A stretch of 58,287 nt of DNA from an uncultured Candidatus Hydrogenedens sp. (GTDB taxonomy: Bacteria > Myxococcota > UBA4151), in assembly GCA_902574205.1 (NCBI GenBank), contig CACGMS010000003.1:1-58287 (forward strand). The letters run 5' to 3'. Within the stretch, counting starts at the first letter, position 1. The number at the start of each line of letters is the position of its first letter. The notes beneath the pieces were generated by a model that worked only from the letters and a program-made list of their open reading frames with translations, had not been told where the DNA came from and ran no database searches. Positions 6,145-22,758 of the stretch are shown in pieces. The position numbers were made by a program, and so were the translations under genes.

Positions 6145-7863
6145 TTAATCGAGTCCGAGCATGCGACGGACTTGCGGCGCTTCATCCGAGTTGGGCGCTA
6201 AGCGGAGATATTCCATGTAATGTTTGCGAGCGTTTTCCGTATCTTGCAAGCTTGCGTAGGTGATACCCAAGCCTCGATGGATCTGGGCATTTCTCGGCGC
6301 TTTTCTGACGGCTTTGAGCAGCAAAGGTAGTGCAGCTTTGGGTTGGTTTTCAATTAAACGTTGGTTTGCTCGTGCAAGCAGTTGCCGTGCACTAAGATTG
6401 GTATTGCTTGATGCGGATTTTGCCGATTTTTTTCCTCGATTTGCGCTGGAGTTTGAGCTTCGACGCGGCGTATCCTTTGAGGTTGCTTCGGCGAGTCGGT
6501 CTCGTAGTTGCCGCACCTCGCGGCGGTCGGGCGCATAGATTTCGGCGTTGCCTAAGTGCCCTGCAGCTTTCGTGTACAGGTTTCGATCCAAGGCAGCCGC
6601 TGCGAGATCAAGCTCGAGCTGAACAAAAGAATTCCGTACCTCTTCGCGATGACGCTCTGCTTCTTCAAAGTAAACTGAGTTTTTAGGAATAGCTTGAAGG
6701 TCTTCCAGCGCCTCGGACCAGTTCTTCGCTGAAATTTTAGCTAAGGCCTTTTCAAGGCTTTCTTTATAGCGACGTTCATTGGTCAAGACAGCTTTGAGTG
6801 AACTTAGCTCGCGGCTTGGTACCTCTTTAGGTGCCTTGAGTAAGTGCTGGAGCGCTTCGCTCCAGCGTTGGTTTTGGCGTAATCGGTTCATGGTTTCGTG
6901 CCATGACTTTTGGTCGTCAAGAGCATTGGCGATTGACTGGTCGCTTTGGGACCGACCATTGAGCGCCCACCAGGCACCTGCAGCGAGCGCGGTGATAAAG
7001 ATCACCAGCAAAGCTGTCGGCATCAGGTTACCGACTGGTCGCCTTTGTTTGCTGAGTAGATCAGCGAACTCTGGGATCTGACCCGGGGCAAAGAAGCGTA
7101 ACTGGATATGACCCATATCGATGCGATCGCCGGGCTGGAGTCGCGTGTTCGCATAGTTTTCACCATTGACCTGAATTCCGTTCGCCGAACCCACATCTTT
7201 GATAATAAACTGGTTATCTTGAAACTCGATGGTCGCATGATGCCGGCTGATCGACCGATGCTCGACTCGTACCTCGCATTCAGCACCACGACCGAGTCTA
7301 CAGGGGGAGCGATCAATCGTATATTCTGTGCCCGCGAGCTGGGCGGAGACCACAACCAGCCGAGCAGGCGGTCCGTTGAGAAGTCCCTCGAAGCTCTCTT
7401 GTCTGAGCTGGCTGCCAAGACCTGCTCGCAGGTTGATCACCGCTGTTGGGTCCTGGTCTTCATCGTCGTCGATAATCGGCGCTGCGCGTGCCATCAATGG
7501 TGCAGCAGAACCTGGGATTGTATTGTCAATTTGAGTGACTTGGGAATCGTCCGGCTCGACCGCATGAACGCCTTCGCCCAGGATCCGGAGTTCGTAGTCT
7601 CCGATACTGACCACATCGCCGAGTATAAGAGGGCTCGTCCCCTCAAGTGGTTTGCCGTTGATTTGCGTACCGGTGTAGCTTGCCAAGTCTTCTAAGCGAA
7701 GTTTGTCTTCACTTGAATAAAGGACCGCGTGTTGTCTTGATACATTACGATCAGTCAAACGAATCACGTTGCCGTCTTGACGGCCTATGGTAATTTCGGA
7801 GCGTGTGACTGGGATAACGGAGCGGTTTCCCTCGTCGTCCTCAATCTCAACCTGAAAGACCAA
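6145..7863 (-). CDS. Tandem FHA domain - transmembrane - TPR protein
   Basis: FHA1 IGRQ...VSRQHA...SYTG; FHA2 LGRG...ISRHHA...GSANG; TM LMPTALLVIFITALAAGAWWAL; C-terminal TPRs (AQIHRGLGITYASL..A..HY.EYLRLAP). Confidence 0.85.
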   Translation of the reverse strand: MVFQVEIEDDEGNRSVIPVTRSEITIGRQDGNVIRLTDRNVSRQHAVLYSSEDKLRLEDLASYTGTQINGKPLEGTSPLILGDVVSIGDYELRILGEGVHAVEPDDSQVTQIDNTIPGSAAPLMARAAPIIDDDEDQDPTAVINLRAGLGSQLRQESFEGLLNGPPARLVVVSAQLAGTEYTIDRSPCRLGRGAECEVRVEHRSISRHHATIEFQDNQFIIKDVGSANGIQVNGENYANTRLQPGDRIDMGHIQLRFFAPGQIPEFADLLSKQRRPVGNLMPTALLVIFITALAAGAWWALNGRSQSDQSIANALDDQKSWHETMNRLRQNQRWSEALQHLLKAPKEVPSRELSSLKAVLTNERRYKESLEKALAKISAKNWSEALEDLQAIPKNSVYFEEAERHREEVRNSFVQLELDLAAAALDRNLYTKAAGHLGNAEIYAPDRREVRQLRDRLAEATSKDTPRRSSNSSANRGKKSAKSASSNTNLSARQLLARANQRLIENQPKAALPLLLKAVRKAPRNAQIHRGLGITYASLQDTENARKHYMEYLRLAPNSDEAPQVRRMLGLD

Positions 7864-7965
7864 TTGCCTCTTCCTGTACCCTTACTAAGGGGTTCACTCG
7901 TGGATATGCTAAGCGCGTATGCCCCTTTGACACAATCTTTACGAACGCAATGATCAAACGAATCT

Positions 7966-8766: not shown

Positions 8767-9869
8767 TTTTTAGACCGACGAAGTGGCGCTTGAAACCAAC
8801 GCGTTGGGTTCACTGCGAGCGCATCGCTGCGAAGCTCAAAGTGCAAGACTCCCGAATCACCAAGTAATCCGATAACCGATCCAGCTTGAAGATCATCGCC
8901 CGGCTTCGCCTGAGTTTCTGAAAGCCCACCATAGACGGTGCGCCAGCCACGACCGTGATCAATAACCATCGCCAGACCCAAGCCGGGCGAGCGGCCTACA
9001 AAAGCGACTCTACCCTTTGCAGCGGCGACGACTGGCGCAGTTGCCAAGCCCTCTAAATCAATTCCACGGTTACGCCAGCGAGTGAGCCTATCTTTCGCCT
9101 CTTGCCAGCCGTAACCATTGACGACCTTTCCTGCTACCGGTGGGACTAAAGCACCTCGCTTTAGACCTTTATGAGGCATGTCGAGCATGGGTTTGACTTG
9201 GGCGAGCCAAGCGGCGAGCGCCAGTCGCTGTTGTTCCAGAGCGCGAGCATGGGCGACCGCACGTTTTCGATCGCGACGAACCTCGTTGAGTCGGACCTCA
9301 GCCAGGCGTCGCACTTCGGCACGCTCAGTAAAGAGACGGTCCAGATCGTTTTTCAGTCGTTGTTGTCCCAGCCGGACTTTGGCGAGCCGTGATGTGCTTT
9401 CTTTAAGTGCTAAATCGCTTTGCTCAGCTCGTCGCCATAACGCACTCGAGCGCGCTACACGTTGCCGTTCCATAGCTCTCATCAAAGGTTTATCCATGCC
9501 AACATGGTTCCCTCGAAGAAGTAGTCCGAGTGCTTGCCTCGCCTGCAGTAGTGCGGTTTCAGCGGTCTTTTGCAAGCCAGTCGATTGACTTTCGAGTTCA
9601 TCGAGTTGTTCATCTGAGTCGTTAAGACGCTCGTTGGCAAGACGAGCAGCTCGTTTGGCCTCGCTTAACGCAAATTCGAGATCCTCGAGTGTAGCGACCA
9701 TTCGCGTCTCTTGTTCGGCGAGATCTTTATCGGTCGCTTTACCTCGACTGAGACGGTCGCGTAATGTCTGCAGTTTTTCGAGTGTTATACGAACAGCTTG
9801 CTGATCGTTAATGGCCGTGAGCGCAGGTTGGGGTCCGGGTGATAGAGCGAGCAAAAACGCAAACGTCAT
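8763..9869 (-). CDS. envC: EnvC-like murein hydrolase activator (coiled coil plus degenerate M23/LytM)
   Basis: Long coiled coil; LytM domain with Zn ligands altered (NRGID, YGGL, VLHFELR); follows ftsX. Confidence 0.8.
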   Translation of the reverse strand: MTFAFLLALSPGPQPALTAINDQQAVRITLEKLQTLRDRLSRGKATDKDLAEQETRMVATLEDLEFALSEAKRAARLANERLNDSDEQLDELESQSTGLQKTAETALLQARQALGLLLRGNHVGMDKPLMRAMERQRVARSSALWRRAEQSDLALKESTSRLAKVRLGQQRLKNDLDRLFTERAEVRRLAEVRLNEVRRDRKRAVAHARALEQQRLALAAWLAQVKPMLDMPHKGLKRGALVPPVAGKVVNGYGWQEAKDRLTRWRNRGIDLEGLATAPVVAAAKGRVAFVGRSPGLGLAMVIDHGRGWRTVYGGLSETQAKPGDDLQAGSVIGLLGDSGVLHFELRSDALAVNPTRWFQAPLRRSKN

Positions 9870-11791: not shown

Positions 11792-11920
11792 ATGACGCTA
11801 TCAGAGCTTGCACAACATCTTACTCGTGAAGAGATGGCGGCCTTTGGAATGTGGCCGAGCGCGAGTGAGGAAGACGAGCACTTGAGCGATGATTGTCACC
11901 ACCAAGAAGAACTCAACTAG
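11792..11920 (+). CDS. Unannotated 42-aa acidic small protein
   Basis: GGAG lies 8 nt before ATG; MTLSELAQHLTREEMAAFGMWPSASEEDEHLSDDCHHQEELN; its stop overlaps the convergent sctT stop (CTAG). It is below the ORF-track size cut-off. Confidence 0.45.
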   Translation: MTLSELAQHLTREEMAAFGMWPSASEEDEHLSDDCHHQEELN

Positions 11921-12744
11921 CGCATCAAGCGAAGCAGTTCTTCAAGACGCTGAAGGAAGACGACGCCTTCAGCGGCGAGCACTTGAATGGTGGTCGCTAA
12001 ACCTAACGCAAACAACCAGACGCCTGCGATGGCTTTGGCGGGCAGACTCAAAAAGTAAGCTTGGATTTGCGGGGCTGTACGGTTGAGCAGGCCAAAGGTT
12101 AAATCGGTCAGAAAAACCGCCACAAGTATCGGCATCGCAAGAGCGACTGCGACCATGAGAATACGAGCAGCGCTGACCATGATGAGTTCTGCGAAGGCGC
12201 CGATCCCCGCGGCTTGAAATTGAGGCATCTCGGTCACGGGTAAACCCACAAAACTGGTGAACAGCGCTCCGAGAAAGAAGCGGTGTCCTCCGATACTTAG
12301 AAAGATGACGAGGAACAGTTGAAAGCTCAAATTACCAAAAACTGAACTTCGTTCTTTGAGTTCGGGAACGAGCGCCGTCGCCATATTGGTACCGCGCAGT
12401 AAATCGACCAATCGACCAAGCATGTCAGCGATCAAAAATAATTCGTATAAAATAAAGCCGATACAAAATCCGATAAACACTTCTTTGAGCATCAACACCA
12501 AGAAAGCGATGGGCGTCGTTGGTGGGGGCACTGTGTTGCCTGCAGAAACGACTGGGTAGACCAGCAGTGCGAGCAGCACGGCTAATCCAATCTTTACCGG
12601 CTCTGGTGCATTTTTACCGCCGAGAAATGGGATCATCACCACAACTGGCAAAAGGCGCCCAAGAATGAGACCAAACAGGACAAGTTGCTCGGTGCTTTGC
12701 CTGCTCAGCAGTAGCCTGTCTAAAACCCAACCTACGTCACTCAT
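11917..12744 (-). CDS. sctT: Type III export gate subunit SctT/FliR
   Basis: R...V..PFLGG...P..VKIGLA, KE.FIG..IG, G.LVD..RG, FL..GGH, LLNRTAPQIQAYFLSLPAK; start at the ATGA overlap with sctS. Confidence 0.92.
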   Translation of the reverse strand: MSDVGWVLDRLLLSRQSTEQLVLFGLILGRLLPVVVMIPFLGGKNAPEPVKIGLAVLLALLVYPVVSAGNTVPPPTTPIAFLVLMLKEVFIGFCIGFILYELFLIADMLGRLVDLLRGTNMATALVPELKERSSVFGNLSFQLFLVIFLSIGGHRFFLGALFTSFVGLPVTEMPQFQAAGIGAFAELIMVSAARILMVAVALAMPILVAVFLTDLTFGLLNRTAPQIQAYFLSLPAKAIAGVWLFALGLATTIQVLAAEGVVFLQRLEELLRLMR

Positions 12745-13019
12745 CGCAGCAAGGGCACAAAGCCAGTGAAACACAGATGAGCAAATTGAAGTAAGAAGCC
12801 GCCCACCCAGGCTCCTGTGATGGCGAGCAACAAAAATACCGCAATGACTTTGGGTACAAAGCTCAACGTGGCTTCTTGAATTTGAGTCGTCGCTGAGAAA
12901 AGTGCGACCGCCAAACCAACGACTAGGCTGCCAATAACAGTAGGCGCTGAGGCGAGCATGACGAGCATTAATGCCTCGTTGGTTACCTGCAGGACAAATT
13001 GTTCAATTTGGCCGTACAT
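12741..13019 (-). CDS. sctS: Type III export gate subunit SctS/FliQ
   Basis: SAP..IGSLVVGL.VALFSATTQIQEATLSFVPK. Confidence 0.93.
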   Translation of the reverse strand: MYGQIEQFVLQVTNEALMLVMLASAPTVIGSLVVGLAVALFSATTQIQEATLSFVPKVIAVFLLLAITGAWVGGFLLQFAHLCFTGFVPLLR

Positions 13020-13778
13020 TTATGTGTATCCCATCACTAAACCTTGAGTGAGAAGATGCCAGCCATCCACGAGCACAAAGAGAAGCAGTTTGAACGGTAA
13101 CGAAATCGTTGTCGGCGACAACATCTGCATACCGAGAGCCATCAAAATATTACTGACGACCATATCAATGACCAAGAAGGGCAGAAAGATAATGAAGCCA
13201 ATTTGAAAGGCTTCGGTTAGTTCGCTGACTACAAAAGCCGGGATAAGCACCATATAGTCATCAGCGCTAATACCTGCTCGCTGAGCCTTAGGCCGCATAC
13301 GCTTCGCCAGCATGTAAAACATCTTTCGATCTTTGGCGCTGGCATGTCGTTTGAGAAACTGTCGCATCGGCTCGGCACCGACAATCATCGCTTCTTTGAG
13401 GACACCGAAATTCTTTCCTTGAAGCAGATTTTCACCTTCTGCTTGTTTCGTGACCTCTTGAGCGTCGACGTACATCCGCTCCATCACCGGACTCATGGTA
13501 TAGACTGTGAGAATAATAGCGAGACCGGTAATGACGGTATTCGGCGGTATTTGCTGGGTGCCGATCGCTTGGCGAGCGATGGACAGTACGACCGCCATTT
13601 TAACAAAGCTGGTCACCATCATCAGGACGAAGGGGACGAGTGCTAAGCCAGCCAGCGCCGTCATCAGGATCAGCGGTCGGTTTGCTATACTGTCGTTACC
13701 CATCAACTCGCTGACGTTGAGATTCTGGGCGATAACCAAAGGAGGTGCCACCATGGCACTCGCGATCAAAAACCTCAT
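13020..13778 (-). CDS. sctR: Type III export gate subunit SctR/FliP
   Basis: MMVTSFVK.AVVLSI.RQAIGTQQIPPN; PAFVVSELTEAFQIGFIIFLPFLVIDMVVSNILMALGMQMLSPTTISLPFKLLLFVLVDGW. SFVK is the SctR-type variant (FliP usually SFTR). Confidence 0.96.
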   Translation of the reverse strand: MRFLIASAMVAPPLVIAQNLNVSELMGNDSIANRPLILMTALAGLALVPFVLMMVTSFVKMAVVLSIARQAIGTQQIPPNTVITGLAIILTVYTMSPVMERMYVDAQEVTKQAEGENLLQGKNFGVLKEAMIVGAEPMRQFLKRHASAKDRKMFYMLAKRMRPKAQRAGISADDYMVLIPAFVVSELTEAFQIGFIIFLPFLVIDMVVSNILMALGMQMLSPTTISLPFKLLLFVLVDGWHLLTQGLVMGYT

Positions 13779-14116
13779 CCGTTCTCAGTCTCCGAGACTT
13801 GAGATGAGTGAAGATGAGCCAAGTGCGTGATCGCTCCCTCGTTGGTGCCGATCAAACGACGCTCGCCCTCAATATTGATGATATGAACCGAAGCTTTGGG
13901 TGTGAGCGCAAGGGACTCTTCAATCTCAAGACGCTCACCTTTTCTCTGGCTAAGACCGGGAAAACGCTTGAGAAAGTGCGTTAATAAGAGCATTCCGCCG
14001 ACCACCAGAACGAGGACAAGAACCATCCACACAAGCATCCAGCCAAACGACGTTCCTGTATGGACGGGAACTGTTGGCGGCGGAATCGGATTGGTTGCTC
14101 CGATTAGACTGACCAC
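13775..14116 (-). CDS. fliO: FliO-like membrane chaperone of the export gate
   Basis: One TM followed by LEIEESLALTPKASVHIINIEGERRLIGTNEGAITHL (FliO pattern); canonical position before fliP/sctR. Confidence 0.8.
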   Translation of the reverse strand: MVSLIGATNPIPPPTVPVHTGTSFGWMLVWMVLVLVLVVGGMLLLTHFLKRFPGLSQRKGERLEIEESLALTPKASVHIINIEGERRLIGTNEGAITHLAHLHSSQVSETENG

Positions 14117-14419
14117 TGGCTTACTCGCACACCCAATTCGCCATCGATATTGAGCAACTCGCCTCGACCGACAAGCCGTCCCGCTAGCGTGAGATCAACT
14201 TCAGACCCAACAGGCTTCCCTAGACGTAAAACAGAACCGACTTCGTAGGTCGAGACGTGCGCTAGACTCAGACGAAGTCGACCGAGCTCAGCAGCTAAGG
14301 TCAGTTCGACATCTTCCGCGAGTACGGTCGATAAATCTGCTGCCTGCTGTATTTCCGAAGCTTCGGCCTCGTCGGTATCAGGTTCTGGGGTATGCACTGG
14401 CTCGCTCATGACGGCCTCC
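14104..14419 (-). promoter_or_regulatory. Internal RBS and in-frame ATG14409 producing a 101-aa SctQ-C (FliN-like) chain
   Basis: Minus strand reads GGAGG-CCGTC-ATG-AGC-GAG, in frame, in the linker just before SPOA2. Confidence 0.7.
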
Positions 14420-15225
14420 ATTAGATCGAGTTCGACAATGCGAAAGGCACCGTCTTCAGTGAGTTCACAATCAGCTCGGCGCCGAGCGCCGGGGGCTGAT
14501 AAACCGCAGCGTCCGCTGGGGTTTCCTTCGTCGGATAAGGTCAGGTTAGCATCATCTAATATGATGACATCGCCCGGTTCAATGCTCAGTAATTCCTCAT
14601 GGTTTAGCTTGGCTATGCCCACGCTTAAAGCCATCTCAAAGGGCAATGCATACAGCGGGCTATGCGAAGAGACTTGACGCGTGGTCGGTCGAGCTTCCGG
14701 GCAGTGATGAAAACGAATTTGAATTTGCCCAGCGACCAAGTCTCCGCGACCGGCCAAAATGACCACAGGGCCCTCGCCAAGATCATCGGTCGGCGGGCTT
14801 GATAGGTCAGTCAAGACAGGGACGGGTAAGACGGAAACCGAAGATCTTAGCTGCGACATCCAATCGAGGATGAGGTACTCAAAGACACCGAGTTCGACCG
14901 CTGTCAGCGAACGAGCAGGGCGGGCTTGGTCTTGGGTAGCACCGAGTACTTCATCCACAGCAGCTAGGGCTAGGGGACCTGCCACGCGAACCGAGACGTC
15001 CAGTCCATCGCCACGCCAGCGAAAGCCCACACATTGTTCCTCCGGCAAGGTCCAATCGCCAGCGATCCCGACGACAGACGGCAGATCCGAACATCCAGGC
15101 GGCTTGGGCAGAAGCGCTTGGTTTTCGGTCACCAAGCCAGGCAGACGCTCACGCAGCGTACTGGTTAGTTCCACTTGATCGCTCGTTAGGGAAGGAAGAC
15201 CCTCCCAATTATAGCCCTGTTCCAT
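14104..15225 (-). CDS. sctQ: SctQ (FliM/FliN-like) cytoplasmic ring protein with two SPOA domains
   Basis: GGAGG lies 10 nt before ATG15225; SPOA1 (L...ELL.IEPGDVIILD) and SPOA2 (AELGR..LSL..V.....G.VL.L...GRGEL..IDGELGVRV). Confidence 0.88.
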   Translation of the reverse strand: MEQGYNWEGLPSLTSDQVELTSTLRERLPGLVTENQALLPKPPGCSDLPSVVGIAGDWTLPEEQCVGFRWRGDGLDVSVRVAGPLALAAVDEVLGATQDQARPARSLTAVELGVFEYLILDWMSQLRSSVSVLPVPVLTDLSSPPTDDLGEGPVVILAGRGDLVAGQIQIRFHHCPEARPTTRQVSSHSPLYALPFEMALSVGIAKLNHEELLSIEPGDVIILDDANLTLSDEGNPSGRCGLSAPGARRRADCELTEDGAFRIVELDLMEAVMSEPVHTPEPDTDEAEASEIQQAADLSTVLAEDVELTLAAELGRLRLSLAHVSTYEVGSVLRLGKPVGSEVDLTLAGRLVGRGELLNIDGELGVRVSQWSV

Positions 15226-15322
15226 GGGCACTTGACCTCCCGTGTCTGCGCAGCGCGTGCACGACACCGTCGCAAGCTAGTGGCGCGAGCACAGACCGTA
15301 AAGGGGGCGCGCTCAATCCAGT

Positions 15323-16273
15323 TTAGGCTTGGTCCACTTTCAGTTCGTTGAGGTCGAGTCCTTTATCCCGAAACACAGCGGCTAACTCCGTGTGATGGGC
15401 GGCAAGCATACGGCTGCCTTCTTTGTTGTCGCCACTGATTTGAATGCGTACTTTGCCATCTTTAGCCTGGATGCTCAGGCGCAGTCCGGCCAGGAGATTG
15501 CCACCCAGTTCAATATCGAATCGTGCGTCTCCGTGTTGGTCGATTCCCACAAAGACCTTGCGCGCTAGCGCTTCGAGCAATGCCTGCGGGATTTTGGGGC
15601 CGCCAGCGGCCCCGGGTTTCCCTTCGGCCCGAGCGCTTAGTGAACCAATCCCTTCAATAGCCGAAGCAGTTGCACCAGCAACCGCTCGTTGAGCGCGTGC
15701 ACCTTTGAGTTGGGTTTGTCGCTCGTCTTGCGTTTCTCGACTACGCTCTTGGCGTTGCGTCGCCTCTTGACCGTGGCTTTGCTGAACGCCCTGTTGGCTG
15801 ATTTGACGCTGTGTTTCAACGCCTGTGCGTTGACGCTCTTGGCTCTGCGATGCCTTGCCTTCAAGTTCGCCTTGATGACTGTGCGCGTCGGTGGCTCGTT
15901 CTTTACCGACGGTATTCGCGGCGCGATGGGCTACCGCTCGTTGTTGACCGAGGGCTGACTTCTGTGAAGATCCTGGCCGTTGGCGCGCTGCATTGAGCAC
16001 GGCTCGCGCATTTTCTTTAGCCGTCTTTTTCTTCGGTTGGGGCCGGGTTTGTTTGGGTAACTGTTTGGTCTGGTTCTTGGTGTCAGTTTGTCGCGGTTGA
16101 GTCTGTTGTTGGCTTTTAGGGTTCTCTTGGGTTTTCCCGCTACGCTCCATGGCGGACTTAAATGCCTGTCGAGTTTCATTACGAGACTTTGTATCGCGAG
16201 CCTTGTCTTGACGGACTTGATCCTGTCTTTTGGCATCCGCACGTTTTTGGTCGCGGCGTCGAATTTCAGACAT
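15323..16273 (-). CDS. FliK/SctP-like molecular-ruler protein
   Basis: AGGAG RBS; Q/R/K/T-rich low-complexity N-terminus; C-terminal T3S4-like domain (FDIEL...L.GLRLSI...DGKVRI......L......L......GL.L..L.V); lies directly before sctQ. Confidence 0.72.
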   Translation of the reverse strand: MSEIRRRDQKRADAKRQDQVRQDKARDTKSRNETRQAFKSAMERSGKTQENPKSQQQTQPRQTDTKNQTKQLPKQTRPQPKKKTAKENARAVLNAARQRPGSSQKSALGQQRAVAHRAANTVGKERATDAHSHQGELEGKASQSQERQRTGVETQRQISQQGVQQSHGQEATQRQERSRETQDERQTQLKGARAQRAVAGATASAIEGIGSLSARAEGKPGAAGGPKIPQALLEALARKVFVGIDQHGDARFDIELGGNLLAGLRLSIQAKDGKVRIQISGDNKEGSRMLAAHHTELAAVFRDKGLDLNELKVDQA

Positions 16274-16309: not shown

Positions 16310-19300
16310 TCACGGGATGCTGACGCTAAAGCCATGACGATCGTTTGCGTTCGCCGGGAAGCTGCCGGTGAGTCCGCCTTGATCCGTCAACCGGATGGTC
16401 CAAGTGTAGTCGGAGTTATGGACCAAGGCTGCCTCTCCACTGAGAGGATCAGGCGGCGCTGCGTAGGCTGTATCCACCGGCACCCAAACGATCGGTCTTA
16501 GACCATGAACAGCGTGCCAAACCAACGCGACGACATCATGATTGGTGTCGCCACCCGCTAGGTGGTTTCCAATTCCATTGACGGTCAATCCGCCAGGAAG
16601 ATTCGCCGAAGACAACGTATCGTCACTAGGGTTTGCCTCAGCTGTGCCTAACCAGGCTTCATTGCCTCCAGAGAGGACGATATAGGTGGTGTCGCTTTGC
16701 GCCACAATACTGCAACCTTCGGTTAGCTCCAGGCTATCTCCTGTGCCGCTCGGAGTAATCGTCCAACTTGGCATGACCACCCCCGGGTTTAGTCGTCCGC
16801 CAAGGACTTGAACAGGATTTCCCGTTCCAGGTACGACTCGATAGTCGTCACTGGCTCCAAGACGTGTAGTTTGGAAGTCCGTAGCAACCGTAACCGGTGC
16901 TCCAGCAGGAATGGATGTGATGGTCCAGGGGTCGCCAGGAACCAACGGTTCATCAAGCACGTAGGTCAACAATTGAGCAAATGATGCGAGGACATGACTT
17001 CGACACCAAAGTAATGCTCGTGAGCCGTCTTCACCTAGAGTACTTAAGCGCACTGATGAACATGACGGAAATCCGGCAATCAGGTTTCGGTCATCCCAGG
17101 TGATTGTCCCGCCAGCGTCTGTACCGAGTAGGTGTTGCCCCGACTGGGTGACACGCAGCCATGTGCCATTCGATAAAGCAGTGATTCCGTCGTTTGAAGA
17201 CCAGGCTACTGGTGCTGCTAATCCCGCCATTTGCGCTAAACTGGATGTCCACACATTGTGGTCAAGGTTGAGAATATGAACCAATTGCGAGTTACCGTGA
17301 CTAAACCAGTAAATATCGTCGTTACGACGTACCGCATCGCCAGCCGCAGCAATTGCGATATTTGGTGGGCGCCAGCGCGGGAAGCGCGCCGTAAAGTCGA
17401 CACCACTGGCTAGGTCTGCCGAAAGGTTTCCGCTGCTCCAGATCACAGTGTTGGTGTTGTTCGAGTAGACTTGCACTTCTGCCGTTCGGCTTTGACTGAT
17501 CTGATTAGTCGTAACGTCAAAGGGATCATTACTGGTTGCAGTGAATTCAGGCCAAAGCTCGAGGCTCACGGCAGGGTCATTGGAGTCATTATCGACTCGC
17601 GGGTTCGTGGGGGTTTCGGGTGCAGTATTCGCCTTGTTGAAGATCGTGTTTCCTGAACTGGTTCGAATGCGATCACAAAAGCTTTCGCTCAGTCGCCAAG
17701 TACAATTTAAGCTGTTGTTTGAGCCTAAGCTCAAAGTGGTGGGTTCCGTGACTGTAAAGGACCCATTATTCGCTGTGGAGTCGGCTTGGTTCGTCTCTGT
17801 TCCGCATGTAAATTGACCGACAACTACCATCGACCCACCATTCGTATTCGATCGTGTCCCTGTCATGATGGGTTGATAATCAGCCAGGCCGGACGAGCGG
17901 TTGTTCACGGATGTGCTAAAGGTAGGGGTCGCTGTCCATGTACCGTCAACAGTATCACCTCGAAGCGTGAAACTTGTACCCGTTATTTGTTGGTTACCCA
18001 CGGCATCACGTGCGCGCAAAGTGACACTGTACTCGGTATGGTTCACCCAATTAAATCCTTGAGGCACAAAACTCCAAGCGCCGTTTACTTCGTTGACCGC
18101 AACATTGGACCCGTCGGCTGGGAATCCAGCCGGTAAAGGGCTAATTTGCACGTTGATCCCTACGGTGTCGGCCGTGCCTCTCAAGCCGGCAAGCGCTGTG
18201 GTTCCTGCATTGAGGCAACGAAAGTTACGCGCAACGCCAAATGTCGCTGCCACAGCGGGTGTGCTTAGACTAGGCGCTGTATCCGGCGCCGTGCTATCGA
18301 CGACCAGGGTAAACGGACTACCGCTGGTAAAACCGGTCGCTGCACTCACATCGTCCGCTCGAGGTGTGAGCACAAATTCATCACCATGGGATGCGCTACC
18401 GGGTACCTGATAGTTGACGGTGGTGGAGAAGTTTACGCCGCTGTTGCCAGCGGTTTCACCCACTAGGGTTGTATTGCCCCCAGCCAAAACACTCAGATCA
18501 ACGGTTTCAATGCCCGAGTTGGGATCGGTAGCACTCAGGTTAACCGCGATGGTCTCACCAGCCACAACCGCAAATCGAGCTCCGCCGAGTTGGCGATTGG
18601 CTCCCAACTGGGGAATCCCAACAATCGAAATGGGTGCAACGTCATCGAGGACACTGAGTAGAGTGGATGCAACGGCCGAGTCATTGGTTGCGACATCGGT
18701 TGATTGAACATGAACCGTGACTTGGGTGCCATGCGTGAGCGTTGATGCGACGGTGAGCTCAGAGTTGGTGGTGGTCGTTGTCGGCGCGCCGAGGATCGTC
18801 CGGCTTATTGGAGAAAAACTACCCTGAGCAGGAACGTCTAAAGAAAAGCTCAGACTTGCCACACCTGAGGATGCATCATTTGCTGTAGCTGTCATCGTCA
18901 CGCCATTGGTCAGACTGACCTGGGTTGGCGGTATAACCCAGCTCACGGTGGGGTTCGTGACATCTCTTATGGTGATGGTGACCGTTGCGGTTCCATCCGT
19001 ACTGAACGTGCTCTGATCCGTAGCGATAACGCTGACATTTTGGCTGCCAAGAGTTCGGCAATCAGCGGGAATGGTCCAGGTTCGCTGTACGCTCTGTTCT
19101 GTCGTCTCGCCGCCGAGGGTGACCGGATGAGGCGCAGAGATCGTTCCGCAGGGAACAGTGAACGACAATCCCGCCAGTCCGCTGCTTGCATCGGTTACGG
19201 TGGCGGTCATCGTGACCGAGGTTGAGACATCGACGGTAGTCCCCGAGAGAATGAGCGCCGTGCTCGGTGCTTCGTCGTCTCTAAGGGTGAGCTGATGTTG

Positions 19301-22300
19301 AACCGATGTTGCTGCATTCCCGGCGCCATCTTGTCCGCCTAAAGTCAGCGTGATCACGCCCGGGGGACAGCCTTGAAGACCACTCAGGGTAAAGGTTTGA
19401 TCGGATAGTGCCGGCCCGTTGCTAACTGCTAGTATGCCGCCGTTGCTGACCGTGCCGCAGCTGCTGTTTAGCGTGATGCGTGCGACCCCAGCGCCAGCGT
19501 CGGTCGCCCGAACTAAGATGTTCGCAGAGGCGCTCGAGTTAACCGTTGTTGGGGGGGATCGGAAACTCACTACTGGATCGGTTGCGTCGACAAGGTTTAG
19601 GCTGAGTGTAGCTGGGTTTGACGTATTCCCTGCAGCATCCACCATGCGGACTTGGACGTCTTGTATACCGACCGAGTCGCAATCGCTCGGTACCGTCCAA
19701 CTCTGACTGACCGACACGAGATTTTTCGGCTGATTATTAAAGCTGTAGGGGCCGGCGCTACCGCAAGGAAGCGTGAATTCAGCGGAGGCTAATCCTGAAC
19801 TCACATCCTGACCGCGGATTTGCAGTTGAATCGAGTCACCGGTGTTGATCTGCACCGGCAAGGGGTTGGTAATGGCGACTTGCGTCGGGGGTTCTACGTC
19901 ATCGACGAGTCGCACAGTTGCCGCTGGTGTGGTCGTGTTCGATTGAGCGGATCCATCGATCGCTGAGGCTTGAAGATTCACCGACAGTTGATGGGTGGCA
20001 TCTGAAGCAACCGGCAACGCAAAGGTGTGCGTGCACACTTCTGTGTTGTTGCAGTTGTGGGTCAACGTTTGATTCAGCTCCGCAGCGCTCAACTCGATCC
20101 GGGCGATACCACTTGAGCGGTCACGAGCCGTGACACGAATGGCGCTGCTGGCGCCCGTGTTGAGTTGATCGGGTAGCGAATTGATTGAGACTTGGATGGG
20201 AGCAGTTCGATCAACGACGCTGAGGCGCAGGTTTCCCGTCGCCGTCAATTGCGTTTGGTTGCCTTCACCATCGGTCGCAGTAAACAGAATGCTGTATTGT
20301 CCTTCTTCGGCATCGCTTGGAATCGCCACGGTGAAGTCTTGGTTCTGGCTGGCGACGCGATCGTTCGGCGTATAGTTGACAGTTTGAGTGCGCTCAATTT
20401 GGTTGTTTGAATTGAATTGATTGATGGTGGTGACATAACTCGTTTGCGCAACAACGCCATTGAGGTCACGCGCTCGGATACGAAGGTTGGCACTTCCACC
20501 GACGGTACCTTCCGTGACCTCAGTGACTGTGATGATCGGTCCAGCCTCATCGCGGATCGTACCCGACGCCGTGATGGTTCGCTGGTTTGACGCGGCAGCC
20601 TGATCGGTGGCGGTTACAGAGACCTCAACAGGCAAGCCCGTGCCGATCGAACCGGGGTTTTCGGCGACCGTACCTGTAAAGACGACTGTCCCTTGATTCA
20701 CTACACTCTGGTTGTTCCATGTAATGTGTTGAACGTTGCTCACTTGAATTCGGGCAATACCGGTTGAGTTGATGTCGGTTGCGTTGACTTCGAGTCGAAC
20801 CGGTCCACCGGGTACTAAGATGTTGGGGTTAAACATCGCCGAAACCGATGGTTGCACGTTATCAACCAGATTAAATTGCACACGTTGTCCATCGCTTGAA
20901 TTACCTGAGTCATCGGTAATCCGAGGGACCGCAGAAATCGTTCCTTCTTTTGCGGTGATAGGAATCGGAATGCTCACGCCAACAGCGTTTGCCTCTTGCG
21001 ATGTGTCGTCATCGAGAACTCTGGTCATCGATTGTGCTCCGACTTCGGTTTGACCCACGAGCAGATCGACGAGGCTGACCGAGGCGATGTAGCGAGCAGC
21101 GTCGGAGCCGCTAATCTGAACACTGGCTTGTCGACCATTGCTCAGATTGAGTGATCCTCCACCGCTCACTTGAGATAGCCTTGGTGGTTGGTTGTCTTGA
21201 GGTAAAAATGAGAGCGTTGAAGAGGATGGGTTGGGTGGAGTCGCATTATCCCAAACGGTGACTCGAGCGGTCCAATCTGTGATCGCTCTAAGATCGTTTG
21301 GCGTCGGTAGCTGAAGGATCATTGGACTGGCGTAAGCATCCAGCTGGTTTTGCGCCGGATCAATCGATTCGACCTCACTCTCGACCGCTGGATCACCTTG
21401 TGAGTTTTCGACGCGAAGTTGGAGCCGTGAGATGGCGCCAAAGGTATCGGTTGCGCTTACACTGACGCGTAAACGCCCGCCGACTTCAGGTTGCGCCGGC
21501 GAGCCTGACTCATCGAGCAAGACAATGTTCGTGATGCTGGGCGCCACATCGTCATTAATCTCAAGGTTAAACGGTTCGGCGAGCCCTGCGTTGTGATCGG
21601 CGCCAGTACCCACATCATCAAACCCGCCGGCGATGAGGTTAAAGCCCTGGCCGTCTGGACCGTCAGGTGCCTGAATTTGAAAATTTTGCTCCAGGCTGCT
21701 GCTCAGGTCTGGACAAGCATCTTCGTCAGGTGGTGGTGCCGGGGGAGAACCATCAACTTGTGTCCACAACTGGCGCATATTGCTGTGCTCATCGACGCCC
21801 TGGACTGTGACCTCCAACTGCGCCCCGGGATGGACCCCATCACCAGGGGTCAGTGCCCGCGCTGTTTGTCCATCAATTAGCCAGCGAACCCGGGTAATCG
21901 TGACCTCGGGTGCTGTTGTATCAGCACAGGTTCCAATACATAGTTGACGCGCTTCGATCGCCGTTTTGTTGGCGGTTGCAGCACGGTCGGCAACTTCGAG
22001 GAGGTCAATGGCTAAGGTGCCACTACGCAGTCCGACAGGAACCGGAACAGCGATGATGGCAATTTCATCATCAGCCTGCGGAACGAATCCAGTTAGACTG
22101 CCCGAGATGGTTTTTGTGATGCAGCCATTGCTCAAGATGCGCAGTCGGTAGTTCAGCGCTGCCGCTCCGCTGTGCCGATCATAGACGCGCACTCTCAAAG
22201 CAATCGCACGGTCTGGGATCAACCGCTCGGGTTGAAGCAGCTGAACTTCTGGTGCCGAGGTGTCGGCGACGGTTGCTTGGTGAACAGGCGAGCGAGCAAA

Positions 22301-22681
22301 GCGTCGAGCTGGACCGTCATCTTGAGCCTGAGCCTCAAACTGAAGGTTGCTTCCATCGCGGCCGAACTCGGCAGGTAGCTCCAGCACAGTGGTGGCGTCA
22401 CCACAATCGACGCTCGGATCGAGTCGAACACAGACGATGCCTTCACTCGTTCCTGTAATGGACGCGCTGAAGCGTTGGCTCGATCCACTTCGTGAAACCT
22501 CCAGGTGAAGACTACTAATCTGTCGCTCAAGCGGTGCGGTTGCGCTGAGCGTAAAGCGATTAGACTCCGCAGTGCGTAGTTCCGTGGGACCTTGGAGTGT
22601 GACGGTTGGACTGCTGGTGTCTACGACCACGGTCGGCGCAGAGCAGGATGCAAGAACCAAGATAGAGAACAGTTTTTTCAT
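16310..22681 (-). CDS. Giant surface lipoprotein with ~15 tandem Ig-like repeats and a C-terminal head domain
   Basis: MKKLFSILVLAS-C lipobox; repeats of ~100-120 aa opening with D-x-x-x-P (DTSSP, DTSAP, DTTAP, DDVAP, DNQPP, DNVQP, DEAGP, DRTAP, DDVEP, DATDP, DDEAP, DVTNP, DDVAP, DSTAP) and closing with A.D..GN-type strands. Confidence 0.85.
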   Translation of the reverse strand: MKKLFSILVLASCSAPTVVVDTSSPTVTLQGPTELRTAESNRFTLSATAPLERQISSLHLEVSRSGSSQRFSASITGTSEGIVCVRLDPSVDCGDATTVLELPAEFGRDGSNLQFEAQAQDDGPARRFARSPVHQATVADTSAPEVQLLQPERLIPDRAIALRVRVYDRHSGAAALNYRLRILSNGCITKTISGSLTGFVPQADDEIAIIAVPVPVGLRSGTLAIDLLEVADRAATANKTAIEARQLCIGTCADTTAPEVTITRVRWLIDGQTARALTPGDGVHPGAQLEVTVQGVDEHSNMRQLWTQVDGSPPAPPPDEDACPDLSSSLEQNFQIQAPDGPDGQGFNLIAGGFDDVGTGADHNAGLAEPFNLEINDDVAPSITNIVLLDESGSPAQPEVGGRLRVSVSATDTFGAISRLQLRVENSQGDPAVESEVESIDPAQNQLDAYASPMILQLPTPNDLRAITDWTARVTVWDNATPPNPSSSTLSFLPQDNQPPRLSQVSGGGSLNLSNGRQASVQISGSDAARYIASVSLVDLLVGQTEVGAQSMTRVLDDDTSQEANAVGVSIPIPITAKEGTISAVPRITDDSGNSSDGQRVQFNLVDNVQPSVSAMFNPNILVPGGPVRLEVNATDINSTGIARIQVSNVQHITWNNQSVVNQGTVVFTGTVAENPGSIGTGLPVEVSVTATDQAAASNQRTITASGTIRDEAGPIITVTEVTEGTVGGSANLRIRARDLNGVVAQTSYVTTINQFNSNNQIERTQTVNYTPNDRVASQNQDFTVAIPSDAEEGQYSILFTATDGEGNQTQLTATGNLRLSVVDRTAPIQVSINSLPDQLNTGASSAIRVTARDRSSGIARIELSAAELNQTLTHNCNNTEVCTHTFALPVASDATHQLSVNLQASAIDGSAQSNTTTPAATVRLVDDVEPPTQVAITNPLPVQINTGDSIQLQIRGQDVSSGLASAEFTLPCGSAGPYSFNNQPKNLVSVSQSWTVPSDCDSVGIQDVQVRMVDAAGNTSNPATLSLNLVDATDPVVSFRSPPTTVNSSASANILVRATDAGAGVARITLNSSCGTVSNGGILAVSNGPALSDQTFTLSGLQGCPPGVITLTLGGQDGAGNAATSVQHQLTLRDDEAPSTALILSGTTVDVSTSVTMTATVTDASSGLAGLSFTVPCGTISAPHPVTLGGETTEQSVQRTWTIPADCRTLGSQNVSVIATDQSTFSTDGTATVTITIRDVTNPTVSWVIPPTQVSLTNGVTMTATANDASSGVASLSFSLDVPAQGSFSPISRTILGAPTTTTTNSELTVASTLTHGTQVTVHVQSTDVATNDSAVASTLLSVLDDVAPISIVGIPQLGANRQLGGARFAVVAGETIAVNLSATDPNSGIETVDLSVLAGGNTTLVGETAGNSGVNFSTTVNYQVPGSASHGDEFVLTPRADDVSAATGFTSGSPFTLVVDSTAPDTAPSLSTPAVAATFGVARNFRCLNAGTTALAGLRGTADTVGINVQISPLPAGFPADGSNVAVNEVNGAWSFVPQGFNWVNHTEYSVTLRARDAVGNQQITGTSFTLRGDTVDGTWTATPTFSTSVNNRSSGLADYQPIMTGTRSNTNGGSMVVVGQFTCGTETNQADSTANNGSFTVTEPTTLSLGSNNSLNCTWRLSESFCDRIRTSSGNTIFNKANTAPETPTNPRVDNDSNDPAVSLELWPEFTATSNDPFDVTTNQISQSRTAEVQVYSNNTNTVIWSSGNLSADLASGVDFTARFPRWRPPNIAIAAAGDAVRRNDDIYWFSHGNSQLVHILNLDHNVWTSSLAQMAGLAAPVAWSSNDGITALSNGTWLRVTQSGQHLLGTDAGGTITWDDRNLIAGFPSCSSVRLSTLGEDGSRALLWCRSHVLASFAQLLTYVLDEPLVPGDPWTITSIPAGAPVTVATDFQTTRLGASDDYRVVPGTGNPVQVLGGRLNPGVVMPSWTITPSGTGDSLELTEGCSIVAQSDTTYIVLSGGNEAWLGTAEANPSDDTLSSANLPGGLTVNGIGNHLAGGDTNHDVVALVWHAVHGLRPIVWVPVDTAYAAPPDPLSGEAALVHNSDYTWTIRLTDQGGLTGSFPANANDRHGFSVSIP

Positions 22682-22758
22682 CGTGCAGGAAGTGTTGCGC
22701 ATGCGAGCGCGCACGGCAAGGTTGTCGATCGCTGATCTGCTCAAATTTTTTGATTTAG

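What the first reader, a model, noticed from the sequence alone, without database searches (positions are those of the whole stretch)
11917..16273. Stripped-down hybrid type III module: SctRST, SctQ, FliO and FliK-like, without SctU/V/N/J
Seen: the cluster ends at sctT with no sctU/flhB downstream and no ATPase or MS-ring gene in the window. It mixes injectisome traits (SFVK-type SctR, single fused SctQ) with flagellar traits (FliO, and an N-terminal signal-like extension MRFLIASAMVAPPLVIAQ on SctR, as FliP has). Known: myxobacterial T3SS are regarded as intermediates between flagellum and injectisome. Inference: either a split T3SS* or a reduced gate with another role.
Basis: partly seen in the sequence, partly recalled or inferred. 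Interest (0 to 1): 0.62.

Follow-up and report, generated by a model that had tools for sequence, protein, structure and literature searches.

The report
Split needle-less type III secretion module
These six genes are the inner-membrane gate and sorting-platform part of the already described "needle-less" type III secretion system of myxobacteria. In this uncultured, flagellated marine relative the system is scattered over at least four genome sites, so it is real and intact but an ordinary member of a known family.

Summary
Window 16273..11917 (minus strand) encodes an SctP/FliK-like protein, SctQ, a FliO-like protein, SctR, SctS and SctT. No sctU, sctV, sctN or sctJ lies in the window.

The module is not stand-alone. 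The window is one contig of a 60%-complete MAG.
- sctV lies on contig C126.
- sctJ, a fliG-like gene, sctL, sctN and sctO lie on C36.
- sctU is missing from this assembly. All five genomes of the same family (85-94% complete) carry it at a fourth locus.
- A separate flagellar cluster with its own fliPQR-flhBA lies on C9.

A FliP/SctR tree puts the window's SctR deep inside the Myxococcota SctR clade, with Myxococcus, Corallococcus and Archangium. It is cleanly separated from FliP, including the genome's own FliP. No SctC-class secretin or SctF needle was found in the family.

The "hybrid" traits are clade-wide features of this system: FliO, a signal peptide on SctR, and a FliK-type C-terminal domain. 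FliO in Myxococcota T3SS was published in 2025.

Verdict: a scattered copy of the "Myxo" NF-T3SS / T3SS*, and a new member of a known kind. The lineage-specific oddity is operon linkage to an outer-membrane barrel protein and a 2,144-aa lipoprotein.

The parts
15323..16273 (-). SctP/FliK-like protein (316 aa). It has a low-complexity, charged N-terminal two-thirds and a conserved C-terminal domain of about 90 aa, the T3S4 substrate-specificity-switch type.
   Evidence: It has no Pfam hit of its own. It is homologous (BLAST E 1e-17 to 1e-88) to the gene between sctO and sctQ in 21 Myxococcota T3SS loci. Of those family members, 18 of 22 hit PF02120 Flg_hook and 17 of 22 hit PF09483 HpaP.
14104..15267 (-). 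SctQ, the cytoplasmic sorting-platform / C-ring protein, of the single fused FliM-FliN type
   Evidence: TIGR02551 scores 102.3 bits (cut-off 100.8). PF01052 FliMN_C covers residues 318-385, E 5.6e-21. The best solved relatives are FliN and YscQ-C. Relatives carry either a fused FliM+FliN protein (L038) or separate FliM-like and FliN-like genes.
13775..14116 (-). FliO-like single-pass membrane protein, the presumed assembly chaperone for the SctR pentamer
   Evidence: PF04347 FliO scores 34.6 bits (cut-off 22) and TIGR03500 E 5.6e-12. The same slot is filled by FliO-family genes in other Myxococcota loci. FliO in Myxococcota NF-T3SS is published (PMC12403147).
13020..13778 (-). SctR, the export-gate pentamer subunit, with an N-terminal cleavable-looking signal peptide
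   Evidence: TIGR01102 scores 236.9, above its cut-off of 208.6, and NF009438 scores 263.7. The fliP model scores below its cut-off. The tree places it in the Myxococcota SctR clade, split from FliP with SH-aLRT 100. It is 37% identical to the genome's own FliP and about 60% to Corallococcus/Myxococcus SctR. The signal peptide is clade-wide.
12741..13019 (-). SctS, an export-gate subunit (FliQ family)
   Evidence: PF01313 E 3.7e-24. The fliQ and SctS equivalog models score about equally and both fall below their cut-offs. It is 98% identical to the same-genus orthologue.
11917..12774 (-). SctT, an export-gate subunit (FliR family)
   Evidence: PF01311 E 8e-50. TIGR01401 SctT scores 148, above fliR at 130.6. 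It is only 23% identical to the genome's own FliR.
16310..22744 (-). A 2,144-aa lipoprotein with repeated Ig-like modules, 36 nt upstream of sctP on the same strand. It is probably in the same operon, but a functional link to the T3SS is unproven.
   Evidence: It has a lipobox, LVLASC, and DUF4625/DUF7743 hits. The order p860-giant-sctP-sctQ-fliO-sctRST is conserved in both genera of the family. No homologue sits next to T3SS genes outside this family.
22759..25341 (-). An 860-aa protein ending in a 12-strand outer-membrane beta-barrel, the first gene of the same-strand run. A functional link to the T3SS is unproven.
   Evidence: It has no Pfam hit and only 6 homologues in 5.8 billion proteins. 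The AF2 model shows 12 long strands at residues 586-849, mostly pLDDT 72-90 with lower-confidence loops. The top Foldseek hits are OM barrels: OmpG, FapF, Tsx, NanC and the NalP translocator. The protein ends in ...LAGLF.
6145..7863 (-). A 572-aa FHA-FHA-TM-periplasmic TPR protein. It is a possible equivalent of the FHA-type inner-ring partner (SctD), with low confidence.
   Evidence: PF00498 FHA occurs twice, and PF16697 Yop-YscD_cpl scores 98 bits. A TM helix lies at about residues 279-301. Its position is conserved in the family. Double-FHA relatives sit beside sctV in Cystobacterineae loci and beside sctN in L017. Against this, the only solved-structure hits are generic FHA domains.

Best explanation
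[quoted passage not shown] This is the 'Myxo' NF-T3SS of Abby & Rocha 2012, called T3SS* in Myxococcus xanthus. The host is a small-genome (about 3.4-3.9 Mb), flagellated, probably marine lineage of uncultured Myxococcota.

The window supplies these parts:
- the helical export-gate core SctR5-SctS4-SctT1;
- the FliO-like membrane chaperone that helps SctR assemble;
- the SpoA-domain sorting-platform protein SctQ;
- an SctP/FliK-type protein whose C-terminal T3S4 domain would act on SctU.

The remaining parts are encoded elsewhere.
- Own contig C126: the SctV ring.
- Own contig C36: the SctJ lipoprotein ring, a FliG-like protein, and the SctL-SctN-SctO ATPase complex.
- Same-genus genomes: SctU with an LcrH-type TPR chaperone.

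Together they would form an ATP- and PMF-driven apparatus that moves unfolded substrates across the inner membrane only. By analogy with M. xanthus, onward delivery probably depends on another envelope machine, and a Kil-like Tad locus is present.

Shown here: gene identities, paralogy to the flagellar set, phylogenetic placement, conservation of the split layout, and purifying selection.
Inferred: assembly into one machine, its substrates, and a role in prey lysis.
For: Gene identities come from curated HMMs.
- SctR, SctQ and SctV (832 bits against a cut-off of 692) exceed the NF-T3SS equivalog cut-offs, as does SctU of same-genus genome G001 (369 against 358). The SctR, SctV and SctU proteins fall below the corresponding flagellar cut-offs.
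- SctJ is a 265-aa lipoprotein: 128 bits on the SctJ model against 21 on FliF.

A second, flagellar set lies on C9.
- It carries its own FliP/Q/R, FlhB and FlhA.
- It also carries FlhF, FliA, FlgF, FlgG, FlgH, FlgI, FlgK, flagellin and FliS.

Counts in relatives support two systems per genome. Each genome of the family that is 85-94% complete has two FliP-family genes and two YscJ/FliF genes (a 525-537-aa FliF plus an SctJ read in a 275-320-aa open frame). All have two FlhB-family genes, one of them split across contigs in G003. Four of the five show two FHIPEP genes; G002 shows one.

In the tree, the SctR side (with Rhizobiales SctR references) and the FliP side (with alphaproteobacterial FliP references and the genome's own FliP) are split with SH-aLRT 100 on each side. 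The window's SctR nests with Myxococcota SctR, including Corallococcus, Myxococcus, Archangium and Cystobacter.

In most Myxococcota the same genes form one block: sctJ-fliG-like-sctL-sctN-sctO-sctP-(fliM-like)-sctQ-fliO-sctRSTU...sctV. In this family the block is broken in the same way in both genera.

Selection: dN is 0.02-0.19 against saturated dS (above 1.7). Where dS could be estimated (sctQ, fliO, sctR, sctT), dN/dS is 0.02-0.09, like the neighbouring ftsE.

No secretin reaches the SctC cut-off and there is no SctF hit in the family.

The literature describes the same gene set for T3SS* (PMC10433427; PMC12075869; PMC3459982).
Against: - sctU is not in this 60%-complete assembly. Its presence is inferred from same-genus and sister-genus genomes.
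- Physical and regulatory unity of the four loci is not shown. A shared 14-nt motif lies upstream of sctJ and sctV but not upstream of the window operon.
- The absence of a secretin, needle and canonical SctD periplasmic domain rests on HMM searches without a positive control among the control genomes.
- The function in predation is an analogy only. This lineage is flagellated and has a small genome, unlike M. xanthus.
Confidence: 0.85

Rival explanations
1. It is an ordinary dispersed flagellar operon: fliK-fliMN-fliO-fliPQR that became separated from the other flagellar genes.
For: The gene order mirrors fliK-fliM/N-fliO-fliP-fliQ-fliR. FliO and a signal peptide on the FliP-family protein are flagellar traits. 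The genome is flagellated. The best solved-structure hits of SctR are FliP chains.
Against: The genome already has a complete fliPQR-flhBA set inside its flagellar cluster on C9. The window's SctR is only 37% identical to that FliP. It lies on the SctR side of a split supported at 100/100. The SctR, SctQ and SctV equivalog cut-offs are passed, and the fliP and flhA cut-offs are failed. In relatives the same genes are contiguous with sctJ/sctN/sctU/sctV and never with rod, hook or filament genes.
Confidence: 0.02
2. It is a stand-alone reduced gate: SctRST+Q+FliO working without SctU/V/N/J, for example as a membrane conduit or nanotube platform.
For: There is no sctU/V/N/J within 58 kb, and the cluster sits among housekeeping genes (ftsEX, ddl, dxs, RNR). 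CORE-like roles of fT3SS parts have been proposed in other bacteria (PMC6456723, listed).
Against: NF-type sctV, sctJ, sctL, sctN and sctO are present and intact on other contigs. sctU is present in all five family genomes. In sister lineages all of these genes form one block, so the simplest reading is one machine encoded in pieces.
Confidence: 0.04
3. It is a decaying relic of a T3SS cluster that has been broken up by rearrangements.
For: The cluster is fragmented. The M. xanthus loci were once annotated as relics (PMC3459982).
Against: All six ORFs are intact. The orthologues in the same-genus genome G001 are 75-98% identical, with dN/dS at or below about 0.1 where it could be estimated, equal to ftsE. 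The identical split layout is retained in two genera whose synonymous sites are saturated.
Confidence: 0.03
4. This is an extension rather than a strict rival. In this family the gate operon has been fused to an outer-membrane barrel protein and a giant Ig-repeat lipoprotein. These two would provide the missing outer-membrane or contact part of the needle-less system, making a lineage-specific envelope-spanning device.
For: p860, the giant lipoprotein and sctP-sctT lie on the same strand, with a 36-nt gap between the giant's stop and sctP, and about 14-75 nt between p860 and the giant depending on which start codon is used. The order is conserved in both genera. p860 ends in a 12-strand OM barrel. 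Both genes sit exactly at the breakpoint between sctO and sctP.
Against: The linkage exists only within one family, so inherited synteny cannot be separated from function. The giant protein carries a Sec-type lipobox signal, so it is not a T3SS substrate. There is no sequence or structural link between either protein and any T3SS component. Co-transcription was not tested.
Confidence: 0.12

Closest known systems
Myxococcus xanthus T3SS* (MXAN_2434-2464), i.e. the 'Myxo' NF-T3SS group of Abby & Rocha 2012 (PMC3459982; PMC10433427; PMC12075869)
   Same: - The gene set matches: SctJ, SctL, SctN, SctQ, SctR/S/T/U/V and an LcrH-type chaperone.
- A FliO homologue is present (PMC12403147).
- There is no SctC secretin and no SctF needle.
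- SctR branches inside the same clade, at about 60% identity.
- An FHA-domain sigma-54 activator sits beside sctV here, and FHA-domain proteins sit beside sctV in the Cystobacterineae loci.
- A Kil-like Tad locus is present in the genome.
   Different: - The genes are scattered over at least 4 loci instead of one cluster of about 30 genes.
- The host also has a complete flagellum and a genome of about 3.5 Mb.
- The gate operon starts with an OM-barrel protein and a 2,144-aa lipoprotein that are unknown from Myxococcus.
- The SctN ORF has an N-terminal extension of about 175 aa.
- The function (prey lysis) was not tested here.
Flagellar export gate FliO-FliP-FliQ-FliR with FliK and FliM/FliN
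   Same: The gene order is the same. A FliO-family gene is present, the FliP-family protein carries a signal peptide, there is a FliK-type C-terminal domain, and SctQ has a SpoA (FliN) domain. FliG- and FliM-like partners occur in the wider clade.
   Different: It is a paralogous second set. The window proteins fail the FliP equivalog cut-off, and SctV on contig C126 fails the FlhA cut-off. SctR lies on the non-flagellar side of the tree. No rod, hook, filament or stator genes are linked. The ring protein is a short SctJ lipoprotein, not FliF.
Scattered NF-T3SS of Chlamydiales
   Same: Both are functional NF-T3SS encoded in several separate loci, three or more of which hold core genes (PMC3459982).
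   Different: The chlamydial system has a secretin, a needle and a translocon, and injects eukaryotic hosts. It belongs to a different T3SS family.
Canonical injectisomes (Ysc, Inv-Mxi-Spa, Hrp, Rhizobiales Rhc)
   Same: The SctR/S/T/U/V/N/L/O/Q/J core is homologous. The NF-T3SS equivalog HMMs for SctR, SctQ, SctV and SctU are passed.
   Different: There is no SctC, no SctF and no detectable canonical SctD periplasmic domain. FliO and a FliG-like protein are retained, with the FliG-like protein in the SctK slot. SctR has a signal peptide.

Membership tests
Myxococcota needle-less NF-T3SS ('Myxo' group / T3SS*) | Non-flagellar-type export apparatus SctR/S/T/U/V | tested here: met
   SctR scores 236.9 against a cut-off of 208.6. 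SctV scores 832 against 692. SctU scores 369 against 358 in same-genus G001. SctS and SctT are assigned at family level only. SctU is absent from the genome's own 60%-complete assembly.
Myxococcota needle-less NF-T3SS ('Myxo' group / T3SS*) | Phylogenetic placement with Myxococcales T3SS genes, outside the flagellar clades | tested here: met
   In the SctR/FliP tree of 70 sequences, the window's SctR nests with Corallococcus, Myxococcus, Archangium and Cystobacter SctR. The SctR/FliP split has SH-aLRT 100 on each side. Only one gene was used, and the only outgroup SctR sequences were from Rhizobiales.
Myxococcota needle-less NF-T3SS ('Myxo' group / T3SS*) | ATPase complex and small inner-ring lipoprotein (SctN, SctL, SctO, SctJ) | tested here: met
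   They lie on the genome's own contig C36. SctJ is a lipoprotein (128 bits). SctL is present. SctN scores 602 bits against a cut-off of 604.75. A YscO-like protein is present.
Myxococcota needle-less NF-T3SS ('Myxo' group / T3SS*) | No dedicated secretin (SctC) | tested here: met
   The genome's own three secretins are a PilQ type, a GspD beside gspE/F, and a Tad-type beside an FHA-TadA ATPase. No hit exceeds the SctC cut-off in 9 genomes, including four of the family that are more than 92% complete. No control genome holds an SctC.
Myxococcota needle-less NF-T3SS ('Myxo' group / T3SS*) | No needle subunit (SctF) | tested here: inconclusive
   There is no PF09392 hit at E<=0.1 in any family genome. 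The model is short and there was no positive control.
Myxococcota needle-less NF-T3SS ('Myxo' group / T3SS*) | FliO homologue inside the T3SS operon (PMC12403147) | tested here: met
   PF04347 scores 34.6 bits against a cut-off of 22, between sctQ and sctR.
Myxococcota needle-less NF-T3SS ('Myxo' group / T3SS*) | Works with a Tad-like Kil system to lyse prey | not testable with these tools
   A Kil-like locus exists on C75: a secretin, an FHA-TadA ATPase and an FHA protein. Function cannot be tested in silico.
Flagellar type III export gate (FliOPQR) | FliP equivalog score and FliP-clade placement | tested here: not met
   TIGR01103 scores 206.1, below its cut-off of 217.45. The protein lies on the SctR side of the tree, while the genome's own FliP from C9 lies on the FliP side.
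Flagellar type III export gate (FliOPQR) | It is the only such set in the genome and is linked to flagellar structural genes | tested here: not met
   A second set sits in the flagellar cluster on C9. The window set is flanked by ftsEX and a giant lipoprotein.
Canonical injectisome | Secretin SctC, needle SctF and an SctD ring with periplasmic RBM domains | tested here: not met
   None was detected in the genome itself or in relatives. The SctF and SctD searches had no positive control, so the absence of those two is only indicated.

The most novel reading that the evidence does not exclude
In this family of marine Myxococcota the export-gate operon is transcribed together with two other genes. 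One encodes an 860-aa protein ending in a 12-strand outer-membrane barrel. The other encodes a 2,144-aa Ig-repeat surface lipoprotein. In this reading the two proteins are the missing outer-membrane or contact half of the needle-less T3SS. The locus would then be a new kind of envelope-spanning, contact-dependent device built on a flagellum-like gate that still carries FliG-, FliM/N- and FliO-type parts.
Probability: 0.12. Interest if true: 0.75.

Novelty: new member of a known kind. Interest (0 to 1): 0.3.

Why it matters
The finding adds little to what is known about what the machine is. The needle-less myxobacterial T3SS, its basal position between flagellum and injectisome, and its FliO gene are all published.

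It does add three modest points.
1. The system is not confined to soil Cystobacterineae. It occurs together with a full flagellum and a Kil-like Tad locus in small-genome, probably marine Myxococcota. That bears on the published claim that T3SS*/Tad co-occurrence is restricted to Cystobacterineae (PMC10849154).
2. It can be scattered over four or more loci, as in Chlamydiales. Annotation pipelines that look for one cluster will therefore call it incomplete.
3. The wider clade keeps FliG-, FliM- and FliN-like proteins. This contradicts the 2012 statement that Myxo systems lack FliG, and it makes the flagellum-to-injectisome transition more directly testable in M. xanthus.

Tried and rejected
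- **Sigma-54 promoter (TGGCAC-N5-TTGCW) in the window.** There were 31 matches against about 35 expected by chance, and none upstream of the operon. Rejected.
- **Sigma-28-like TAAA-N14/15-GCCGAC.** It lies upstream of p860 and of sctJ in the genome itself. It is not conserved in any relative. Rejected as chance.
- **Promoter/terminator scan of 11-26 kb.** Counts were at or below shuffled expectation, so the scan says nothing about operon borders.
- **The FHA gene next to sctV as SctD.** In full length (G001) it is an FHA + sigma-54 AAA+ + HTH activator, not SctD.
- **The 572-aa double-FHA/TM/TPR protein as SctD.** Only generic FHA hits were found among solved structures, and there was no canonical SctD periplasmic domain anywhere (no positive control). 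Left as a weak candidate.
- **Homologues of p860 and the giant lipoprotein beside T3SS genes in other lineages.** None were found.
- **The upstream region of p860, own genome against the sister genus.** No conserved block was found.
- **The Thiery et al. 2022 paper.** It is not held in the library.

Full report
**1. What is in the window**

Six consecutive ORFs lie on the minus strand between 16273 and 11917. Pfam and NCBIfam identify five of them directly.
- SctQ (15267..14104): TIGR02551 102.3 bits against a cut-off of 100.8. One FliN-type SpoA domain at residues 318-385.
- FliO-family protein (14116..13775): PF04347 34.6 bits against a cut-off of 22.
- SctR (13778..13020): yscR equivalog 236.9 bits, above its cut-off of 208.6. 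The fliP equivalog scores 206.1, below its cut-off of 217.45.
- SctS (13019..12741).
- SctT (12774..11917).

The first ORF (16273..15323, 316 aa) matches no family by itself. Its last ~90 residues align with the gene that sits between sctO and sctQ in 21 other Myxococcota T3SS loci. Of those 22 proteins, 18 hit Pfam Flg_hook (FliK, best E 3.4e-13) and 17 hit HpaP. It is therefore an SctP/FliK-family protein with a T3S4-type C-terminal domain.

After sctT comes a 530-nt spacer, then ftsE, ftsX, an M23 peptidase and an S41 peptidase. There is no sctU.

**2. The rest of the genome**

The window is the whole of contig C3 of a 2.02-Mb, 141-contig assembly estimated at 59.8% complete. Absence from the window or from the assembly therefore proves little.

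Whole-genome HMM searches gave these results.
- FHIPEP: two genes, on C9 and C126.
- FlhB/SctU family: one gene, on C9.
- T3SS ATPase: one gene, on C36.
- YscJ/FliF family: one gene, on C36.

C9 is a large flagellar cluster.
- Reading the ORFs, it runs fliO-like-fliP-fliQ-fliR-flhB-flhA-flhF-flhG-fliA-...-flgF-flgG-flgA-flgH-flgI-...-flgK-flgL-...-flagellins-fliD-fliS.
- Curated models confirmed FlhF, FliA, FlgF, FlgG, FlgH, FlgI, FlgK, flagellin and FliS.

C126 is a 2.6-kb contig. It carries an SctV (hrcV equivalog 832 bits against a cut-off of 692; FlhA model below its cut-off) followed by the start of an FHA protein.

C36 carries, between housekeeping genes, an operon with these products:
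- a 265-aa SctJ lipoprotein;
- a 299-aa protein;
- SctL;
- a 613-aa SctN;
- a YscO-like protein;
- an 80-aa protein.

So the organism has a flagellum with its own export gate, plus a second, non-flagellar set of which the window holds one piece.

**3. The missing sctU**

Thirty related genomes were searched. The three same-genus genomes (85-93% complete) and the two sister-genus genomes (93-94% complete) gave these counts:
- two FliP-family genes each;
- two FlhB-family genes each (in G003 one of them is split across two contigs);
- two FHIPEP genes in four of the five; G002 shows one;
- two YscJ/FliF genes each, namely a 525-537-aa FliF and an SctJ read in a 275-320-aa open frame.

In same-genus genome G001 the second FlhB-family gene passes the SctU equivalog cut-off (369 against 358; flhB below its cut-off). 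It lies at yet another locus, behind three AIM24-family genes and a metallo-beta-lactamase-fold gene. It is followed by a 142-aa protein, an LcrH/SycD-like TPR chaperone and a 366-aa protein.

In G001 the gene after sctV is, in full length, an FHA + sigma-54 AAA+ + HTH activator. It is a regulator, not SctD. sctU is thus most probably in the unassembled 40% of this MAG.

**4. Which system it is**

The nearest relatives of the window's SctR are all from Myxococcota:
- 88% and 78% identity to two marine/polar MAGs;
- about 60% to Corallococcus, Myxococcus, Pyxidicoccus, Archangium, Cystobacter, Hyalangium and Vitiosangium.

Database homologues that carry a name are called SctR.

I built a maximum-likelihood tree of 70 FliP-family proteins. 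It included Rhizobiales SctR and alphaproteobacterial FliP taken from symbiont or environmental plasmids as labelled references.
- It splits into a FliP side and an SctR side, each with SH-aLRT 100.
- The genome's own C9 FliP and the FliPs of its relatives fall on the FliP side.
- The window's SctR falls deep inside the Myxococcota SctR group.
- The window's SctR is only 37% identical to the genome's own FliP, and SctT is 23% identical to FliR.

**5. Layout in relatives**

In most Myxococcota loci the genes form one block: sctJ, a ~300-aa gene, sctL, sctN, sctO, sctP, (a ~305-aa gene), sctQ, fliO-like, sctR, sctS, sctT, sctU, two ~155-aa genes..., sctV, an FHA gene.

In the window's family the block is broken in the same way in both genera and in two further MAGs. 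The order is p860, the giant lipoprotein, sctP, sctQ, fliO, sctR, sctS, sctT, and then ftsE, ftsX, M23, S41 and an FHA-TM-TPR protein. The split is therefore old and stable.

Between the window and G001, synonymous sites are saturated (dS above 1.7) while dN is 0.02-0.19. Where dS could be estimated (sctQ, fliO, sctR, sctT), dN/dS is about 0.02-0.09, the same as for ftsE. The genes are under purifying selection and are not relics.

**6. Needle and secretin**

The genome's three secretins are:
- a PilQ type;
- a GspD next to gspE/gspF;
- a short one next to an FHA-TadA-type ATPase and a double-FHA protein, which is a Kil-like Tad locus.

None reaches the SctC cut-off in this genome or in eight relatives. 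No SctF hit occurs in the family, and no canonical SctD periplasmic domain was found. The last two searches had no positive control, so they indicate rather than prove absence.

This is the gene content described for the 'Myxo' NF-T3SS (PMC3459982) and for M. xanthus T3SS* (PMC10433427; PMC12075869).

**7. The 'hybrid' traits**

- FliO in Myxococcota non-flagellar T3SS operons was reported in 2025 (PMC12403147).
- The signal-peptide-like N-terminus of SctR is present, usually in clearer form (...LAPAVAHA|KK...), across the 120 nearest SctR homologues.
- The fused SctQ is one of two states in the clade. Some lineages have separate FliM-like (PF02154, 30-82 bits) and FliN-like genes, and others have a FliM-FliN fusion.

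These are ancestral characters of the clade, consistent with its basal position. They are not a local mosaic.

**8. Things found on the way**

*FliG-like protein.* The 299-aa gene between sctJ and sctL on C36 belongs to a family in which all 8 sampled members hit FliG_M (best E 4e-11) and FliG_C (best E 7e-9).
- Its AF2 model (pLDDT 72.5) has FliG as its top ten PDB matches.
- A profile of the family also matches the N-terminal ~310 residues of the gene that follows sctJ in Corallococcus, Archangium, Hyalangium and Vitiosangium (E 1e-24 to 1e-30).
- Abby & Rocha stated that Myxo systems lack FliG. Earlier agents of this scan had noted the same FliG-like gene in other genomes.

*Shared upstream motif.* A 14-nt motif, GGTAGWC-N10-AAGRGCG, occurs at only two intergenic places in the assembly. 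These lie directly upstream of sctJ and of sctV, and both are conserved in G001. This hints at co-regulation of two of the four loci. The window operon lacks the motif.

*The two genes upstream of sctP.* They are specific to this family.
- p860 has a confidently modelled 12-strand C-terminal barrel, and its best structural matches are outer-membrane barrels.
- The 2,144-aa protein has a lipobox and Ig-like repeats.
- Their tight spacing with sctP and their conserved order suggest one operon. Nothing else ties them to secretion.

**9. Verdict**

- The 'split T3SS*' reading is supported.
- The 'reduced gate' and 'flagellar operon' readings are not supported.

The locus is a scattered copy of a described system in a new host lineage, so it is a new member of a known kind and of modest interest. 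The most novel reading still open is that the co-operonic barrel and giant lipoprotein form an outer part of the machine in this family. I put that at about 0.12.

Noticed in passing
own genome contig C36:8454-9353 (-) (locus L009); also L038:3224-4369, L083:3951-4943, L046:2046-4124 and others: A FliG-like protein occupies the SctK slot between sctJ and sctL of the Myxococcota needle-less T3SS. All 8 sampled members hit FliG_M and FliG_C, and the AF2 model's top PDB hits are all FliG. A family profile also matches the gene after sctJ in Corallococcus, Archangium, Hyalangium and Vitiosangium. Abby & Rocha 2012 stated that Myxo systems lack FliG.
   Followed up: yes
L083:8222-9139 and 9143-9529; L061:6807-7721 and 7742-8278; L038:8003-9289: Some Myxococcota T3SS loci carry separate FliM-like (PF02154, 30-82 bits) and FliN-like genes before fliO. 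Others, including the window's type, carry a single FliM-FliN fusion annotated as SctQ.
   Followed up: partly
window 22759-25341 (-) and 16310-22744 (-): An 860-aa protein with a 12-strand outer-membrane barrel at its C-terminus, and a 2,144-aa Ig-repeat lipoprotein, lie directly upstream of sctP on the same strand. The order is conserved in both genera of the family. Neither gene is found next to T3SS genes in any other lineage.
   Followed up: partly
window 6145-7863 (-): A 572-aa protein with two FHA domains, one TM helix and a periplasmic TPR region keeps its position downstream of ftsEX-M23-S41 throughout the family. Double-FHA relatives sit beside sctV in Cystobacterineae T3SS loci, so it may be the SctD-equivalent. 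This is unproven.
   Followed up: partly
own genome C36:10185 (-) and C126:66 (+); G001 loci L165:530 and L116:10634: The motif GGTAGWC-N10-AAGRGCG occurs at only two intergenic sites in the 2-Mb assembly, just upstream of sctJ and of sctV. Both sites are conserved in a same-genus genome. It may be a shared regulatory site of the dispersed T3SS loci. It is absent upstream of the window operon.
   Followed up: partly
own genome C75:1385-6792 (locus L162): A short secretin, an FHA-TadA-type ATPase and a double-FHA protein lie in a row, forming a Kil-like Tad locus. T3SS* and a Tad-like system therefore co-occur outside Cystobacterineae, contrary to a statement in a 2024 review (PMC10849154).
   Followed up: partly
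own genome C36:6080-7921 (-): The SctN ORF is 613 aa. About 175 coiled-coil-looking residues precede the ATPase core, and the ORF starts right at the end of sctL. Relatives have SctN of 441-457 aa.
   Followed up: no
G001 locus L115:10080-13036 (-): In same-genus genomes sctU is preceded on the same strand by three tandem AIM24-family (TIGR00266) genes and a YtnP-like metallo-beta-lactamase-fold lactonase gene.
   Followed up: no
L054 (JABDBI010000001.1), L025/L038/L084, L064: Several public MAG records that carry this Myxococcota-type T3SS are labelled Methanobacteriota archaeon, Bdellovibrionales or Terriglobia. Their SctR nests within Myxococcota SctR, and some are identical to SctR from genomes placed in the window's own phylum. 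The labels are probably mis-binned or outdated.
   Followed up: no
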